Shown here piece after piece: positions 27,001-33,000 of a stretch of 64,000 bases of DNA. The DNA is taken from assembly GCA_018302105.1 (NCBI GenBank), contig JAGWAD010000023.1:10405-74404 (forward strand), written 5' to 3'. This DNA is from Candidatus Woesearchaeota archaeon. GTDB taxonomy: Archaea; Nanobdellota; Nanobdellia; SCGC-AAA011-G17; GW2011-AR18. Position 1 is the stretch's first letter. Every line of letters starts with the position of its first letter. The position numbers were made by a program.

Positions 27001-30000
27001 TCTAAGCAGAATACATAATCAAATGATTTATCTTTAAAAGGAAGTTTTTGTTCATTAAGATCAATTTTTATAACCTTTTTATCTTTTGGTTCTAAATCTA
27101 CAGCATTATACTTAATATCTTTAGGTAAATATTTGGAAAGTTGCATTTCCCTGCAGCCAACATCAAGCACATTCATACCTAAAGAAAAATTGCATAGCTT
27201 CATTATTTTTTTAAATCTTATTTCCAAACTTTTTTTAAACATCCAGGAATTAGTCATATTTAGATGCATGAATTAACCTTTTATATTCCTTTGCATAAGC
27301 TTTAGCACAATCATCCCAGTCATTAAGTTTTATATTTTTACTATTTTTTAAAAGCTTGGAAAAGGTTTTATTATCTAAAATTTTGATTATTTTATTATAA
27401 ATATCTTTAGGATCTTGTTTGTTAATGAAAAATCCATCTTTACTATCATTAATTAAATCTTCAGCCCAGCCAACTTTAGTGGAAATAATTGGCAAACCAC
27501 AAGATCTTGCTTCAAGCAATACATTACCTCCTGTTTCATTAAGGCTTGGCAAGACAAACACATCTGAAGCAAGCATATAATCAAATACTTCATTCTGGAG
27601 TTTTTCTCCTAAAAAAATTATTTTCTCATTGTCCAATTTAAGTCTTTCAGCATAATCTCCCCTGCCAATAATAATTAAGTAAACATTTTTGTATTCCAGA
27701 ACAATTTTATTAAAAGCTTCAATAAGATATTGTATTCCTTTTTTTTTATCTATTCTGCCAACATATAAAAAAATCTTATCAGCTTTAGGTAATTTTAATT
27801 TAGTTCTCAATGAATTTTTATCTTTTTTTTCTATATTATCAACACCATTCATTATTACCTTAACATTATTAATATTATATTTATTATATAACAACTTCTT
27901 AGAAAAATTACTAATAAGTACTAAAGAATCTACATGAGAATAAATAAATTTATTTAACATTATCAAAAATTTATTATCTGTCATTAACATAAAACTGCTT
28001 CTCTCAGTCAGTAATATTTTTCTTTTATAAAAAGGCTTAGTCAATAATGCTAAAAATGCAGTCAGTCCCCAGTTTGCATGAATTATATCACATTTTGGAA
28101 CATTAAATAAAATTTTAAGATATAAATGAATAAAATAAATGGAAAAAATAAATCTTGCCATCCATGAATGATTAAGTTTTTCAATTATGCCTGCACCAGA
28201 AATTAAGGAATCATATCCTTTAAGAGTAATTAAGTTTACATTTATATAATTTTTCAGAGATTTAACTAATTTATAGATAAATATTCCACGTAAGTCTCCT
28301 AAATAGGAAGGATAAGAAGTCGTAAGCATAGCAACAGAGATTTTATTTTTCATTTTTAACAAGCCAATTACCCATAATTAAATAATCTACACAACCTTGC
28401 TTTAAAGATTTTATTGCATCTACAGGATTACAAACTATAGGTTCTTCATGCATATTAAAGCTTGTATTAACAACAATAGGCAGGCCAGTAAGTTTTTCAT
28501 AATGTTTTAATATATTGTAATATCTTGGATTACTTTCCTTAGTCACAGCTTGAGGCCTTGCAGTATTATCAACATGAACAACAGCTTCAGCCTTTTTTAT
28601 TATATCTTTACAATTAAAAGTAATTGTCATAAATTCTGCAGGATAATTTCCTTTATCAAAATTTTCAAAAAATTCATGAGCTCTTTCTTTAAGTATGGAA
28701 GGTGCGAAAGGCATAAATTCTGAACGACGCATCCTTTTATTTAGCCAGTCGTTTATACTTTTATCAGTTGGATCTGCTATTATGCTTCTATTTCCCAAAG
28801 CTCTTGGTCCATATTCCATTCTTCCATCAAAGTGCCCGACAACTTTCTTATTTGCAAGTAATTCAGCAGCATATTTTTCTGGATCTTTAATATATTCGCC
28901 TTTGACACCTTCAATTTTCATACTCTGAGCAATTTCATCATTTGAATATTCAGGACCAAAATAAACATTCTCTAATCTATAAGGCAGTAAAGTCTTCTTT
29001 AAAGAATAATAATTAAATGCTGCACCACTTGCTAATCCACCATCACCCATATTTGGATAAATAAATACTGAATTTACTTCTGGAAGTTCTAAAATTTTTT
29101 GGTTTAGTTTTACATTTGCAAATACTCCGCCTGCTAATGCAACATCATTTATTTTTAATTTATTGACATAATAAGCAACGAATTTGGTCATTACATCTTC
29201 TAATCTCTTCTGGACAGCTGCAGCAATATCTTCTCTAGAAAAATTTTTCAATTCCCTTTGTAAGTATTCAAAAGCATTTCTTCCAATTAATCCTAAATTA
29301 TTCTTTAATGCCCCATTTTCAAAAGTAAAACATTTCTCAAAAACACTATAACATTTATTGGGATCTCCAAATGCAGCTAAACCAGTAACCTTTCCTTCAT
29401 GCTTAAACATTTTAAATCCAAATATCATTGTAACATAAGCATAAAAATATCCTAAAGAATGAAAAGTTGGAATTTCTTTAATTAAATTCATTACGCCATC
29501 TTTACAATGATAAACACTTGCACTTAATCCATCACCGCTTCCATCAGAAGTAAAGACTAAACATTCATTTTTTCCAGATGTGTAATAAGCAGTTGCTGCA
29601 TGACATTTATGGTGATCAAAATATTTTAATTCACAATCAAATCCAAGGCTTTTAACATAATGTAAACTTTTTTTATCTCTAAAATTATTAAAAATCTTTC
29701 TCTGTAGATTTGCAAAATGCATTGAGGCAGGAAATGGAGTATAATTAGCAAGATTTTGATAAATCTTCTTTTTAAAAGATATATTTTCCCAGCCTATATT
29801 TGCCATCAAACCAGAAGTTCCGGATAATGCAATTGCATCTATCTTATTTTTTTCTATATTAGCTATTTGTAAAACTTTATCTATAGCTTGTTGGGGTATA
29901 CCCAAATATAATTTAGTCCTGTTTAATCTTTCTTCATTTATTGCTGCTATTATTTTACCATCTTTTATTAAGCTTGCACCCGCATCATGCCCATCGTGAA

Positions 30001-33000
30001 TACCTAAAATAATCATAAAAAACAAGAAAAATGGAAGCTTTATAATTGTTTCTAATCAATGATTCATAAATATGGAATATTACTAATTTTCAAATATTTT
30101 ATATTTGTTTGCATTCTAATAAATATATGAAAATAATATACTCAGCCCCAGACATAGGTTTAAATGATTGTAATGGTGGCTCAGCTCACGTTAGTGGTGT
30201 TATTAATGCAATGCACAAAGCAGGCCATAATGTAAATTTAATATGCAACTCAGGAGAAATTGATAATATAATTAAGATTAAAAAGTTCAAGTCAGGTTTA
30301 TTTAGAGTATTAAATTACTTTTTTTCACCATTTTTTATTACAGTTTATTTATGTTTAAAGGAAAAACCAGACATAATATATGAAAGGGCAAGAATCTTTG
30401 GTGGTGGTGCAATATTAGCAGGTAAATTATTTGATATAAAATCAATATATGAAATGAATGAGCCAATAGGTGAAGATAATAATAAATTAAAAAAGATAAT
30501 TTTTAATTGGCACATGATTATAAGCAGATTATCAAATTTAGTTACAGGGACTCATCCAAAATTCTTTTTAGGAATAGAAAAATCAAAACAAAAATTAGTG
30601 CATTATGGTATTGATCCTGAAAAGTTTTCTCCAGAAGTAAATAGTAGCGAAATTATAAAAAAATATAATTTAGAAAATAGTAATGTTATATTGTACATTG
30701 GGAGTTTTGCAAAATGGCATTCATGTGAAAATATAATAAAAGCGGCAGAGTTAATAATAAAAAAAGATAAAAAAATAAAATTCTTAATGGTCGGTGATGG
30801 TGAAAAATTAGAAAAATGTAGAGAATTAACTAAAATATTAAAAATTCATAAAAGTATAATATTTACTGGAAAAATCGAATATTCAGATATGCCAAAATAT
30901 ATCAATGCTTCAACAATTTGTCTTGCATTATTTGATAGAAATTATTTTGCTAATGATTATTATTTCTCTCCTATAAAAGTACACGAATACAAAGCATGCG
31001 GGAAACCAATAATTGCAAGTAATATAGGAAATTTAAAAAATTTGGTTAAAAATAATGAAAATGGATTAACAGTAAATGAGAATAAAATAGAAGATATATG
31101 CAATAAAATAATTATATTATTAAAAAATAAGGATTTATATAGAAAAATCAGTATAAACAACAGAAAAGAAATTGAAAAAAACTACAATTGGTTAAAAATC
31201 ACAGAAGATATATTAAAAAGTGCCATTAATAATTAATCTTATAAATTTTAAAAGTTTGATTTCCATTAGAGGTATCAAAAACAGCTAAAGAATCAATTTG
31301 CAACCTTGTATCATTTAAAAGTTGTTTATAATAATAATTTTCTTCTTCATGACGTTTAACATCATACAATACAAGATAACTTGGTTTCAAAGAGTTTACT
31401 TCACTAAAAAAATAATCATAATCTTTATTCCCTGATCTGCCTTTTGGAAAATAAGTGAATTTTCTATCAGCATAATAAGTTATAGCAAAATTCCATGGTC
31501 CAAGTATCAGGTCATCTGGGTTTGAATTGTTATTAATCCAATAACTTCCTTCTTTAATTCCATTAGTAGTATTATGTTGAATAATAAGAGAATTTACATT
31601 CAAAATTTGAAAAAAACTACCAAAGATAAGTATTATAATAATAAAAGAAATGCCAATAAATTTAGGTATAAAATTAATAATTTTTTTATAAAATTTATAT
31701 AAAATATTTGAAATTAAAAAAAATAAAGGCACTAATGTAGTCATAAGGTATCTGGGCTCAAAATGATTTGATGTTTTTAATATCCCGATTAAGGAAGTTA
31801 TAAACCATAAAAATAAAAATAAATATTTCATATCCAAATTTTTGAATAATATATTTTTGTTAAAATTATTGAAATAATCTCTAAATATAATTAGAAGGAC
31901 AACTGCAATACATGCAAATATAAAAGTTACAATATTTGAAAAAATAAATTGTTTAATTATATCATTTTCTGTAAAGTATAAAGATTTGATTAGATACAGC
32001 AGACCTAAAGACAAGATTAAAAAAATTAATGAATAAATGATCTTAATTTTGTTTCTGATTAAATATAAAATAAATGTTTTTATTAAAATAGAAATTGGTT
32101 TAAAAAATATTACTAAAGATAATATGGCAAAAATCAAAAATAAATATCCGAAATAATTTGGAAAATATATAAAAAAACTAAATATCGAAAATAAGATTCC
32201 TTGTCCATTTATTTCAGTGCTTGTATAACTTCCCCATAAACCATAAATAAACATTCTGAATGGTTCACCAAAAATAATAAAGCTATATAAAAAGTTTAAT
32301 ATATAAACTAAAAAGAATAATAAAATAAATATTTGATATTTTTTAATAGTAAATAAATTCAATCCTGAATAAAATATTAAAAATGATAATAAAAATAAGA
32401 ATAATACTATATTTTGGCTATATATCAATGCTGAAATGCCTGCTAATATAGCAGAAAGGTAAAGAGACTTATTTGAATTATTAATCAACCCATAATAAAA
32501 GTAATAACATGTAACAATCCAGCTTGCTAAAACAGAAGTATTTAATAATATTTTTGTAGAGAAAAATATATCCTGACTGAAAACAGCTATAAAAAGTGCA
32601 CTAAATAATCCAATGGTTTTATTATTAAATAAAAGTCTTGCAAATAAATAAGCATAAACTATAGATAATAATGAAAATAAAATAATCATTATCCTTACTG
32701 CATTCTCTCCAAGACCAAGACCAAAAATTCCAGACCAGATTAATGGAAAAAGAAATGGCCTATAATAATTCCATTGAAGCATTATATCTCCTTTAAGAAA
32801 AGATTTTGCCATCACAAGATATTCTCCTTCATCAGAAGAAGATACTTCAGCATTAAAATCAGTAAAATTTAATCTTACTAAAAACCCAAATAATAATATA
32901 ATTAATAAAGTGAAAAAGTATTTGTCAAATTTCATAAATAAAAGATATCAGTTTAATTTAAATGTCTTTTCATAATTCGCATTCATAAAGTTTAAAAAGA

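What the first reader, a model, noticed from the sequence alone, without database searches (positions are those of the whole stretch)
28343..30025. NodU/CmcH-type O-carbamoyltransferase within the archaeal glycan cluster
The N-terminal block (ILGIHDGHDAGASLIKDGKIIAAINEERLNRTK) matches this family strongly. Carbamoylated sugars are known from Nod factors and antibiotics but, as far as is established, not from archaeal N-glycans. The gene is flanked by GT4 genes and a methyltransferase, which suggests a carbamoylated and methylated sugar in the glycan.
Basis: partly seen in the sequence, partly recalled or inferred. Interest (0 to 1): 0.55.

Follow-up and report, generated by a model that had tools for sequence, protein, structure and literature searches.

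The report
Sugar carbamoyltransferase in archaeal glycan island
This is an intact gene for a TobZ/NodU/CmcH-type carbamoyltransferase inside a large cell-surface sugar-chain gene cluster of a tiny DPANN archaeon; it predicts a carbamoyl-decorated archaeal glycan that nobody has yet observed, but the enzyme family and its presence in glycan clusters are ordinary.

Summary
On the minus strand, 28343..30016 (ATG start; the ORF extends to a TTG at 30025) encodes a 557-aa soluble protein. It matches Carbam_trans_N (1e-45) and Carbam_trans_C (1e-61). Its AlphaFold model (pLDDT 91) superposes on GdmN, TobZ, VtdB and NovN (TM 0.82-0.86).

The general-base His and the four metal ligands are present: H10, H135, H139, D158, D325.

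The window is archaeal (Pop5 and Rpp30 RNase P subunits, archaeal UMP kinase, AglB with WWDYG). Its nearest relative is a Woesearchaeota MAG.

The gene heads an overlapping operon, carbamoyltransferase-GT4-methyltransferase. This sits beside an AglJ-like dolichyl-phosphate-sugar synthase, a flippase-like protein and a GT-C transferase. That neighbourhood recurs in about ten DPANN genomes.

It is not NodU itself: 26% identity, and 155 bits against a 1000-bit cut-off. It belongs to a large uncharacterised subfamily found in bacteria and archaea. In that subfamily the KxR motif of the adenylation site is altered and FRPFAP becomes FMPFAP in 261 of 261 sequences.

Most likely it uses ATP and carbamoyl phosphate to carbamoylate a sugar of an envelope glycan on the cytoplasmic side. 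The link to the N-glycan, the acceptor and the activity are all inferred.

Verdict: new member of a known kind, of moderate-to-low interest.

The parts
28343..30016 (-). Carbamoyltransferase (CT), 557 aa, soluble. N-terminal Kae1-like domain plus C-terminal YrdC-like domain. The ORF extends to a TTG at 30025.
   Evidence: Pfam PF02543 1e-45 and PF16861 1e-61. AF2 pLDDT 91.4. Foldseek to GdmN/TobZ/VtdB/NovN at TMq 0.82-0.86. H10, H135, H139, D158, D325 align to GdmN H27, H133, H137, D156, D333. Maximum 19-aa hydropathy is 0.92, so no TM segment.
27250..28353 (-). GT4 glycosyltransferase (GT4_a). Its ATG overlaps the last codons of CT by 11 nt.
   Evidence: Glycos_transf_1 1e-35 and Glyco_transf_4. 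Junction sequence. CT-GT4 adjacency recurs in L088 and L090 and in several bacterial loci.
26703..27269 (-). Class-I SAM methyltransferase (MT_a, 188 aa). Its start overlaps the end of GT4_a.
   Evidence: Methyltransf_11/23 about 1e-12. Junction. A methyltransferase abuts CT in L082, L089, L090 and L091 and lies within 5 kb in 28 of 80 loci.
30017..30108 (.). 92-bp AT-rich divergent intergenic region between CT and GT4_b, with a TATA-like ATTATAAAG about 25 nt upstream of the CT ATG.
   Evidence: Sequence. Promoter role is inferred, not tested.
30109..31236 (+). Divergently transcribed GT4 glycosyltransferase (GT4_b).
   Evidence: Glycos_transf_1 5e-28.
31226..32935 (-). GT-C membrane glycosyltransferase (PMT_2 family, PMT2_b). 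Its ortholog sits 55 bp upstream of CT in the closest relative.
   Evidence: PMT_2 3e-13. L001/L082 ortholog at E 1e-115 directly upstream of CT.
24937..25818 (+). AglJ/AglD-like polyprenyl(dolichyl)-phosphate sugar synthase (GT2_b, 293 aa).
   Evidence: GT2 1.8e-25. TIGR04182 AglJ 158.6 bits and dolichyl-phosphate hexose transferase 114 bits, both below cut-off. GT2_TM_C weak hit. Orthologs lie within 1 kb of CT in L002, L005, L006, L087, L088 and L092, and about 3.5 kb away in L090.
25815..26726 (+). Flippase-like membrane protein (LPG_synthase_TM).
   Evidence: PF03706 8e-27. TIGR00374 flippase-like domain 48.8 bits, above the 43.2 cut-off. Recurs near CT in L006, L087, L089 and L090.
23282..24940 (+). 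GT-C membrane glycosyltransferase (PMT_2 family, PMT2_a), overlapping the start of GT2_b.
   Evidence: PMT_2 2e-10 and PMT 1e-7. Orthologs next to CT in L002 (7e-151) and L005 (3e-74).
57433..60234 (-). AglB/STT3 oligosaccharyltransferase of the same island, 27 kb from CT.
   Evidence: STT3 3.6e-14. WWDYG at residue 652. archaeo_STT3 100 bits, below cut-off.
46177..48443 (-). Wzx-type flippase (46177..47466) and a PF00953 polyprenyl-phosphate HexNAc-1-P transferase (AglH/MraY-like, 47439..48443).
   Evidence: Polysacc_synt 7.5e-14 and Glycos_transf_4 1.4e-32. MraY-type hits below cut-off.
16251..17501 (+). UDP-sugar 6-dehydrogenase (AglM-like). The same family lies within 6 kb of CT in six relatives.
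   Evidence: UDPG_MGDP_dh N, central and C domains. L087-L092 contexts.

Best explanation
The gene encodes a cytoplasmic, ATP-dependent class III carbamoyltransferase with the TobZ/GdmN fold. By analogy with the solved enzymes, its C-terminal YrdC-like domain would convert carbamoyl phosphate and ATP into carbamoyl-AMP. Its N-terminal Kae1-like domain (metal site H135/H139/D158/D325, general base H10) would transfer the carbamoyl group to a hydroxyl of a sugar. Transfer to an amine is less likely but not excluded.

It is co-translated with a GT4 glycosyltransferase and a SAM methyltransferase. It sits beside a dolichyl-phosphate-sugar synthase / flippase-like / GT-C trio inside the AglB-containing glycan island of a Woesearchaeota-like DPANN archaeon. 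The most likely role is therefore tailoring: carbamoylation, alongside methylation, of a sugar on a dolichol-linked intermediate at the cytoplasmic face, before flipping and transfer to the cell surface.

Shown here: gene, fold, catalytic residues of the transfer site, operon structure, archaeal host, conserved neighbourhood.

Inferred: carbamoyl phosphate and ATP use, sugar acceptor, the lipid-linked stage, and the final glycoconjugate.
For: Family and fold:
- Pfam N and C domains at 1e-45 and 1e-61.
- PDB sequence hits only to O-carbamoyltransferases at E<=1e-58.
- AF2 pLDDT 91.4 with TMq 0.82-0.86 to GdmN, TobZ, VtdB and NovN. TsaD/Kae1 match only the N-domain at TMq about 0.4.

Catalytic residues:
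- Fe ligands and general base align to GdmN H133, H137, D156, D333 and H27.
- SxN (S519, N521), R431, GPRALGNRS and HVDxTxRPQ are invariant in 45 homologues.

Mechanism of the family: PMC6022934, PMC9654439, PMC9633730.

Location and operon: no TM segment, and CT/GT4/MT genes overlap.

Context:
- 47 of 80 homologous loci carry a GT or flippase within 5 kb, and 28 of 80 a methyltransferase. These are lower bounds.
- In the DPANN clade, CT lies with an AglJ-like GT2, LPG_synthase_TM, PMT_2, GT4, a methyltransferase and UGDH.

Archaeal host: Pop5 and Rpp30, pyrH_arch above cut-off, AglB WWDYG.

Precedents:
- WapO carbamoylates heptose II of the Pseudomonas LPS core (PMC8005017).
- Hfx. volcanii uses AglD/AglR/AglS plus the methyltransferase AglP and the dehydrogenase AglM (PMC3871713).
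Against: - No biochemical or glycan-structure data exist for this protein, its subfamily or any DPANN glycan.
- The adenylation-site KxR motif is altered. The window has R430-R431 with a one-residue deletion. The TobZ K443 position is K in only 77 of 261 subfamily members. The R of FRPFAP is M in 261 of 261. Donor chemistry could therefore differ.
- No carbamoyl-phosphate-producing gene is present in the 64-kb window, and DPANN genomes are metabolically reduced (own knowledge).
- In L090 and L091 CT overlaps nucleotide-sugar genes, which fits a nucleotide-sugar acceptor as well as a lipid-linked one.
- AglB is 27 kb away and several other GT-C enzymes are closer.
Confidence: 0.68

Rival explanations
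1. The chemistry is the same, but the acceptor is a soluble nucleotide sugar such as a UDP-hexuronic acid or UDP-hexose. The carbamoylated sugar would then be installed by the co-translated GT4.
For: CT is soluble. In L091 a UDP-sugar dehydrogenase gene overlaps the CT start. In L090 CT follows UGDH, a nucleotidyltransferase and an epimerase with overlap. UGDH lies within 6 kb in six relatives. CT is translationally coupled to GT4_a.
Against: Characterised family members act late, on assembled scaffolds: tobramycin, the Nod-factor oligosaccharide, ansamitocin. The AglJ-like GT2 / flippase-like / GT-C module is conserved beside CT in DPANN loci. The archaeal methyltransferase precedent AglP is described as part of the dolichol-linked assembly pathway.
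Confidence: 0.25
2. The carbamoylated glycan is not the AglB-dependent N-glycan. It would be another envelope glycoconjugate (O-linked glycan, glycolipid or polysaccharide) built outside the membrane by the neighbouring PMT_2-type GT-C enzymes from a dolichyl-phosphate-monosaccharide donor. This is compatible with the best explanation and differs only in the final product.
For: PMT2_b and PMT2_a flank the CT operon. Orthologs of these GT-C genes, not of AglB, travel with CT in L082, L002, L005, L087 and L092. The island holds four PMT_2 genes plus DUF6798 and PTPS_related membrane proteins. AglB is 27 kb away.
Against: In Hfx. volcanii the equivalent trio AglD/AglR/AglS adds the last sugar to the N-linked glycan itself. 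A GT-C module therefore does not exclude the N-glycan. AglB, an AglH-like initiating enzyme and a Wzx flippase are in the same island.
Confidence: 0.4
3. The enzyme acts on a non-glycan substrate. Candidates are 5-hydroxymethylcytosine in DNA (as in phage carbamoyltransferases), a secondary metabolite or a peptide.
For: The superfamily includes 5hmC carbamoyltransferases (PMC8670742) and many antibiotic-tailoring enzymes. Radical SAM/SPASM and B12-radical SAM genes occur in the island and near CT in relatives.
Against: No thymidylate-synthase-like, dCMP-deaminase, PKS or NRPS genes were found among the 63 of the 68 ORFs of at least 100 aa that were scanned against Pfam. Phage enzymes co-occur with those genes, not with GTs. 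CT is translationally coupled to a GT4, and glycan genes dominate the neighbourhood in 47 of 80 loci.
Confidence: 0.04
4. The altered adenylation motif means this subfamily does not use carbamoyl phosphate in the TobZ manner. It might use a different donor, such as carbamate or bicarbonate-derived species, or transfer a different acyl group. It might also be catalytically impaired.
For: K of KxR is not conserved, a residue is deleted, and the R of FRPFAP is M throughout the subfamily. TobZ K443A was crystallised with unreacted ATP and carbamoyl phosphate (PDB title). No carbamoyl-phosphate source lies in the window.
Against: The changes are fixed across hundreds of sequences at 39-74% identity under evident purifying selection, so inactivity is unlikely. 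SxN, R431, R405, R410, R487 and the whole Kae1-like site are invariant. The overall fold is unchanged. Many bacterial hosts of the subfamily are free-living phyla that normally make carbamoyl phosphate (own knowledge).
Confidence: 0.1

Closest known systems
TobZ, GdmN, VtdB and NovN (structurally solved class III O-carbamoyltransferases)
   Same: Same two-domain order (Kae1-like then YrdC-like). Same fold (TMq 0.82-0.86). Same metal ligands and general-base His. SxN, GPRALG and NTSFN motifs conserved.
   Different: Only 27-31% identity. No C-terminal dimerisation domain of the GdmN/NovN type (557 aa against 680). KxR is replaced by R-R with a one-residue deletion, and FRPFAP by FMPFAP. The context is an archaeal glycan island, not an antibiotic cluster.
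NodU / NolO (rhizobial Nod-factor carbamoyltransferases)
   Same: Carbamoylation of a sugar hydroxyl of an oligosaccharide. Genetic pairing with a SAM methyltransferase recalls nodS-nodU (own knowledge).
   Different: 26% identity to NodU. NF041651 scores 155 bits against a 1000-bit cut-off. NodU keeps VKLREYFRPVAP. There are no nod genes here. A long branch separates the two in the tree.
WapO (PA5005), the putative 7-O-carbamoyltransferase of heptose II in the Pseudomonas LPS core
   Same: A carbamoyltransferase encoded among glycosyltransferases of a cell-envelope glycan cluster, decorating a surface glycan (PMC8005017).
   Different: Bacterial LPS core. The sequence relationship to the window protein was not tested here. 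WapO's own activity is described as putative in that paper.
Haloferax volcanii Agl pathway: AglJ, AglD/AglR/AglS, AglP, AglM, AglB
   Same: The same kinds of parts lie in one island: Dol-P-hexose synthase-like GT2, flippase-like protein, Dol-P-sugar-dependent GT-C, SAM methyltransferase, UDP-sugar dehydrogenase and AglB (PMC3871713).
   Different: No carbamoyltransferase is part of any described Agl pathway. HMM scores to AglJ and archaeal STT3 are below curated cut-offs. The host is DPANN, not a haloarchaeon.
Phage 5-hydroxymethylcytosine carbamoyltransferases
   Same: Same Pfam domain pair. ATP and carbamoyl phosphate dependent (PMC8670742).
   Different: Those co-occur with thymidylate-synthase-like and deaminase genes on phage contigs. 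Here the neighbours are glycan genes on an archaeal chromosome fragment.

Membership tests
Class III (TobZ/NodU/CmcH) carbamoyltransferase superfamily | Kae1-like N-terminal domain followed by YrdC-like C-terminal domain in one chain of about 560 aa | tested here: met
   PF02543 covers residues 3-333 and PF16861 covers 384-554. The AF2 model matches full-length TobZ, GdmN, VtdB and NovN.
Class III (TobZ/NodU/CmcH) carbamoyltransferase superfamily | Kae1-type metal site (HxxxH...D...D) and N-terminal general-base His | tested here: met
   H135, H139, D158 and D325 align to GdmN H133, H137, D156 and D333. H10 aligns to H27. H135, H139, D158 and D325 are invariant in 45 homologues.
Class III (TobZ/NodU/CmcH) carbamoyltransferase superfamily | YrdC-type KxR...SxN tetrad in the adenylation site | tested here: inconclusive
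   SxN is present (S519, N521) and R431 is invariant. The K position is R430 here and variable across the subfamily (K in 77 of 261), with a one-residue deletion. The R of FRPFAP is M. The motif definition is from PMC9654439.
Class III (TobZ/NodU/CmcH) carbamoyltransferase superfamily | ATP- and carbamoyl-phosphate-dependent carbamoyl transfer via carbamoyl-AMP | not testable with these tools
   Needs an enzyme assay.
NodU proper (NCBIfam NF041651 equivalog) | Score at or above the curated cut-off, and nod-gene context | tested here: not met
   155.3 bits against 1000. 26% identity to N. galegae NodU. No nod genes in the window.
HypF ([NiFe]-hydrogenase maturation carbamoyltransferase) | Acylphosphatase, Zn-finger, YrdC-like then Kae1-like domains, about 750 aa | tested here: not met
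   The domain order is reversed and there are no ACP or Zn-finger domains. TIGR00143 scores 25.7 bits against 466. Architecture is from PMC6022934.
TsaD/Kae1 (tRNA t6A synthesis) | Single Kae1-type domain of about 330 aa scoring above family cut-offs | tested here: not met
   TIGR03723 scores 36 against 296 and arch_KAE1 scores 15 against 375. Structures match only the N-domain at TMq about 0.4.
Phage 5hmC carbamoyltransferase | Co-occurrence with thymidylate-synthase-like hydroxymethylase, dCMP deaminase or MazG-type genes on viral contigs | tested here: not met
   No such genes among the 63 of the 68 window ORFs of at least 100 aa that were scanned against Pfam. The criterion is from PMC8670742.
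Archaeal Agl (N-glycosylation) gene cluster | AglB/STT3 with a WWDXG catalytic motif in the same locus as GTs, a flippase and sugar-modifying genes | tested here: met
   STT3 at 57433..60234 with WWDYG at residue 652. Twelve GT2/GT4 genes, a Wzx-type flippase and a PF00953 enzyme lie between 19 and 54 kb.
Archaeal Agl (N-glycosylation) gene cluster | The product of this particular gene ends up in the AglB-transferred glycan | not testable with these tools
   Needs glycopeptide MS or genetics. AglB is 27 kb from CT and other GT-C genes are closer.

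The most novel reading that the evidence does not exclude
The 'RTE-FMPFAP' carbamoyltransferases are a distinct and widespread subfamily, found in archaea and many bacterial phyla, that tailors polyprenyl-phosphate-linked sugars. In this DPANN archaeon the enzyme would carbamoylate a dolichyl-phosphate-linked sugar made by the AglJ-like GT2, or the lipid-linked oligosaccharide. The sugar would then be flipped and transferred by a GT-C enzyme. The result would be the first carbamoylated archaeal surface glycan and the first carbamoylated polyprenyl-phosphate sugar donor. The remodelled adenylation site might also reflect a different way of obtaining the carbamoyl group in organisms with minimal metabolism.
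Probability: 0.2. Interest if true: 0.6.

Novelty: new member of a known kind. Interest (0 to 1): 0.35.

Why it matters
If the prediction holds, archaeal surface glycans carry a carbamoyl substituent. That modification is known so far from Nod factors, antibiotics and Pseudomonas LPS, but I found no report of it in Archaea. Surface glycans are probably central to how DPANN cells attach to their hosts, so a tailoring operon conserved across about ten DPANN lineages is a reasonable target. More broadly, the subfamily is large: the best 150 cluster representatives at 50% identity all share at least 39% identity with this protein, and members occur in dozens of phyla. It has no characterised member and differs at a catalytic motif, so one biochemical characterisation would annotate thousands of genes. 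The finding does not overturn anything. Databases already label these proteins carbamoyltransferases, and their occurrence in glycan clusters is common.

Tried and rejected
- Rfam and tRNA scans of the window, to place the organism, found nothing. Archaeal origin was settled from Pop5, Rpp30, archaeal PyrH and AglB instead.
- A plasmid tblastn, run to find characterised relatives, gave only hits at 35% identity or less. The best were haloarchaeal megaplasmids; NodU was 26%. The Natrinema homologue keeps the canonical KxR and is not in a GT cluster, so it was used only as an outgroup.
- HypF, TsaD/Kae1 and pantothenate-kinase hits were rejected as partial ASKHA-fold matches far below cut-off.
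- The slight G+C rise at 28-30 kb was considered as a sign of recent horizontal transfer and rejected. GC3 of CT (0.15) equals that of its neighbours, and synteny is kept in the 74% relative.
- A basic, moderately amphipathic insert at residues 81-123 was considered as a membrane-binding element. The hydrophobic moments (0.41-0.51) are not distinctive, so no claim is made.
- Literature searches for carbamoylated archaeal glycans returned only irrelevant aspartate or ornithine carbamoyltransferase mentions.
- The context census used only window proteins as phmmer seeds, so its counts are lower bounds.

Full report
**1. Observation**

The window has an ORF at 28343..30025 on the minus strand. 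The probable start is the ATG at 30016, giving 557 aa. The public gene call for a near-identical contig and the 74%-identical homologue both start MIILG. A TATA-like ATTATAAAG lies about 25 nt upstream; its promoter role is inferred.

- Pfam gives Carbam_trans_N at 1e-45 and Carbam_trans_C at 1e-61, both covering their full profiles.
- Sequence search of the PDB finds only O-carbamoyltransferases at strong E-values: NovN 7e-70, VtdB 1.5e-67, GdmN 2e-64, TobZ 2e-59.
- The flanking genes are as stated: GT4 at 27250..28362, GT4 at 30109..31236, and a class-I methyltransferase at 26703..27269.

**2. Host and island**

Mean G+C is 26%. The window encodes the archaeal/eukaryal RNase P protein subunits Pop5/Rpp14 (709..1062) and Rpp30 (1751..2248). 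It also encodes an archaeal-type UMP kinase scoring above the curated cut-off and an STT3/AglB (57433..60234) with a WWDYG motif at residue 652.

- The nearest genome relative of the carbamoyltransferase (74% identity, syntenic) is a Candidatus Woesearchaeota MAG.
- A 99.87%-identical copy of 18357..40016 exists in an ENA metagenome scaffold named ANAN16-1_SAMN03842439.

From about 14 to 60 kb the window is an envelope-glycan island:
- seven GT2 and five GT4 genes;
- four PMT_2-type GT-C genes, plus DUF6798 and PTPS_related membrane proteins;
- a Wzx-type flippase and a PF00953 HexNAc-1-P transferase;
- five class-I methyltransferases;
- a polysaccharide deacetylase and a UDP-sugar dehydrogenase;
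- AglB.

**3. The protein**

An AlphaFold2 model built on 45 homologues has mean pLDDT 91.4 and pTM 0.91. Foldseek against the PDB returns GdmN, TobZ, VtdB and NovN at TMq 0.82-0.86 and 27-31% identity. TsaD/Kae1 proteins match only the N-terminal half at TMq about 0.4.

In GdmN the iron ligands are H133, H137, D156 and D333, and the general base is H27 (PMC9633730). In the HMMER alignments these align to H135, H139, D158, D325 and H10 of the window protein. The four ligands are invariant in 45 homologues.

The protein has no hydrophobic segment: the maximum 19-residue Kyte-Doolittle mean is 0.92. It is therefore cytoplasmic, as expected for an enzyme that needs ATP.

HypF is excluded. Its domain order is reversed, the window protein has no acylphosphatase or Zn-finger domains, and TIGR00143 scores 25.7 against 466 bits. 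TsaD/Kae1 is excluded as well.

That is wrong. TobZ is the sugar O-carbamoyltransferase that defines the family structurally.

**4. Not NodU; a separate subfamily**

The NodU equivalog HMM scores 155 bits against a 1000-bit cut-off. tblastn identity to an annotated NodU is 26%, and the best of 473 plasmid hits (haloarchaeal megaplasmids) reach only 35%. In contrast, thousands of unnamed proteins from archaea and many bacterial phyla are 39-74% identical:
- 7993 proteins with E<=1e-10 among the candidates scored;
- at least 562 loci in species-representative genomes;
- all 150 best 50%-cluster representatives at 39% identity or more, within a superfamily of 20046 clusters.

A neighbour-joining tree places this set on a long branch away from NodU and a canonical haloarchaeal homologue. 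Archaeal members are scattered among bacterial ones, which indicates repeated inter-domain transfer. The window groups with other DPANN sequences.

The subfamily has a diagnostic change in the YrdC-like domain. TobZ, NovN, VtdB, NodU and the Natrinema protein read V-K-x-R-E-x-x-R-P-F-A-P. This contains the K and R of the KxR...SxN tetrad (PMC9654439), and TobZ K443 maps to that K. The subfamily instead reads L-x-R-[TS]-E-F-M-P-F-A-P, one residue shorter.
- Among 261 members the residue before PFAP is always M.
- The K443-equivalent is K in only 77 of them (R, N, H, G, Q, S and others otherwise).
- The following R is invariant.
- The window has R430-R431...M435. SxN (S519, N521) and the other arginines are invariant.

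I could not determine what compensates for the missing lysine. This remains unexplained. It is the only feature suggesting a mechanistic variant.

**5. Operon and neighbourhood**

The CT stop codon lies inside the start of GT4_a, with the ATG 11 nt upstream of the stop. The GT4_a stop lies just after the ATG of the methyltransferase. CT-GT4-MT is therefore one tightly coupled operon.

Immediately beyond it, on the other strand, are three genes:
- PMT2_a (23282..24940), a GT-C transferase;
- GT2_b (24937..25818), whose best NCBIfam matches are AglJ, dolichyl-phosphate hexose transferase, PpgS and ArnC, all below cut-off;
- a flippase-like LPG_synthase_TM protein (25815..26726), with TIGR00374 above cut-off.

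Upstream of CT is a second GT-C gene, PMT2_b (31226..32935).

This neighbourhood is conserved although CT identity falls to 46%:
- L082: GT2 - PMT_2 - CT - MT.
- L087 and L092: PMT_2 - GT2 (293 aa) - CT - B12-radical-SAM genes.
- L088: GT2 (292 aa) - CT - GT4.
- L089: CT - MT ... GT4 - LPG_synthase_TM.
- L090: UGDH - nucleotidyltransferase - epimerase - CT - GT4 - MT - acetyltransferase - LPG_synthase_TM - GT2 (292 aa).
- L091: UGDH - CT - MT.
- L002, L005 and L006: orthologs of GT2_b (E 1e-107 to 1e-119), PMT2_a (to 7e-151) or the flippase-like gene lie within 2 kb of CT.

Across 80 representative loci, using only the window's proteins as phmmer seeds (a lower bound), 47 have a GT or flippase within 5 kb. 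Twenty-eight have a class-I methyltransferase within 5 kb, and about ten of those abut CT.

**6. Most likely function**

Established mechanism of the family: the YrdC-like domain makes carbamoyl-AMP from carbamoyl phosphate and ATP, and the Kae1-like domain transfers the carbamoyl group to a substrate hydroxyl.

Applied here: a cytoplasmic carbamoyltransferase, co-translated with a GT4 and a methyltransferase and travelling with a Dol-P-sugar synthase / flippase-like / GT-C trio, most likely decorates a sugar of a dolichol-linked intermediate before it is flipped.

The Hfx. volcanii pathway gives the archaeal template for every other part. AglJ and AglD are Dol-P sugar synthases, AglR takes part in translocation, and AglS transfers from Dol-P-mannose on the outside. 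AglP is the methyltransferase, AglM the UDP-glucose dehydrogenase and AglB the oligosaccharyltransferase (PMC3871713). A bacterial precedent for envelope-glycan carbamoylation is WapO on heptose II of the Pseudomonas LPS core (PMC8005017).

The evidence does not separate three points:
- a lipid-linked versus a nucleotide-sugar acceptor (L090 and L091 favour the latter);
- the AglB N-glycan versus another GT-C-built glycoconjugate;
- O- versus N-carbamoylation.

A nucleic-acid target of the phage type (PMC8670742) is unlikely. None of the associated nucleotide-metabolism genes were found among the 63 of the window's 68 ORFs of at least 100 aa that were scanned against Pfam.

**7. Novelty and score**

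I found no paper describing a carbamoylated archaeal glycan, or a carbamoyltransferase in an archaeal glycosylation pathway. Absence from the searchable library is not proof.

Databases already name these proteins carbamoyltransferases. Their occurrence in glycan clusters is common across prokaryotes, and the fold and transfer site are canonical. I therefore class this as a new member of a known kind. It has two points of moderate interest: a predicted new substituent for archaeal glycans, conserved in DPANN, and a large uncharacterised subfamily with a remodelled adenylation motif. Interest 0.35.

Noticed in passing
window 28343-30016 (residues 423-440) and homologues P0001-P0268: The whole subfamily has L-x-R-[TS]-E-F-M-P-F-A-P where TobZ, NovN, VtdB and NodU have V-K-x-R-E-x-x-R-P-F-A-P. 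The lysine of the KxR tetrad is not conserved (K in 77 of 261), one residue is deleted, and the R before PFAP is M in 261 of 261. The N-terminal general-base HD is also missing in 87 of 261 members, though the window has it.
   Followed up: partly
L081 (ENA scaffold, equals window 18357-40016) at the CT gene and the flippase-like gene: The public ENA copy is 99.87% identical. It carries a 6-nt deletion that removes two alanines of the conserved GLAAFG motif of CT, and its LPG_synthase_TM gene is split into 153-aa and 84-aa fragments. This is either a strain variant or an assembly error; the window version is intact.
   Followed up: partly
window 21476-23242, 23282-24940, 31226-32935, 37669-39180, 48483-50012, 55944-57431, 57433-60234: Very high density of GT-C-type membrane glycosyltransferases for a small DPANN genome: four PMT_2 proteins, one DUF6798, one PTPS_related protein and AglB within 40 kb. 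This suggests several extracytoplasmic glycosylation steps or several glycoconjugates.
   Followed up: no
window 11554-12918 and 39906-41027; L087, L088, L089, L092: B12-binding radical SAM genes (HpnJ-like best hit, below cut-off) and a radical SAM/SPASM gene sit in the island. Two to four B12-radical-SAM genes lie next to CT in DPANN relatives. They may C-methylate or otherwise modify sugars or lipids.
   Followed up: no
window 35968-36438: A small SET-domain protein (lysine methyltransferase fold, 9.7e-15) overlaps the end of a GT4 gene inside the glycan cluster. It is also present in the ENA copy but absent from the 74% relative L082.
   Followed up: no
window 20238-21275: A leucine-rich-repeat protein (LRR_4 5.6e-10) is encoded between glycosyltransferase genes.
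   Followed up: no
window 5603-7546: A 647-aa protein has a weak MG2 (alpha-2-macroglobulin-like) domain hit (9e-7, below the Pfam cut-off). This is unusual for an archaeon if real.
   Followed up: no
window 16251-17838: A 4'-phosphopantetheinyl transferase (ACPS, 8.5e-17) directly follows the UDP-sugar dehydrogenase. No carrier-protein gene was noticed nearby.
   Followed up: no
window 50051-52051 and 12966-14048: Two long ORFs (666 aa and 360 aa) inside or beside the glycan island have no Pfam match. Large unannotated proteins of about 633 aa also follow the CT module in L090 and L091.
   Followed up: no
window 53738-54433: One of the five island methyltransferases gives a weak hit to the NodS family (PF05401, 26.2 bits against a 24-bit cut-off). 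NodS is the Nod-factor N-methyltransferase that partners NodU in rhizobia. It lies 24 kb from CT.
   Followed up: no
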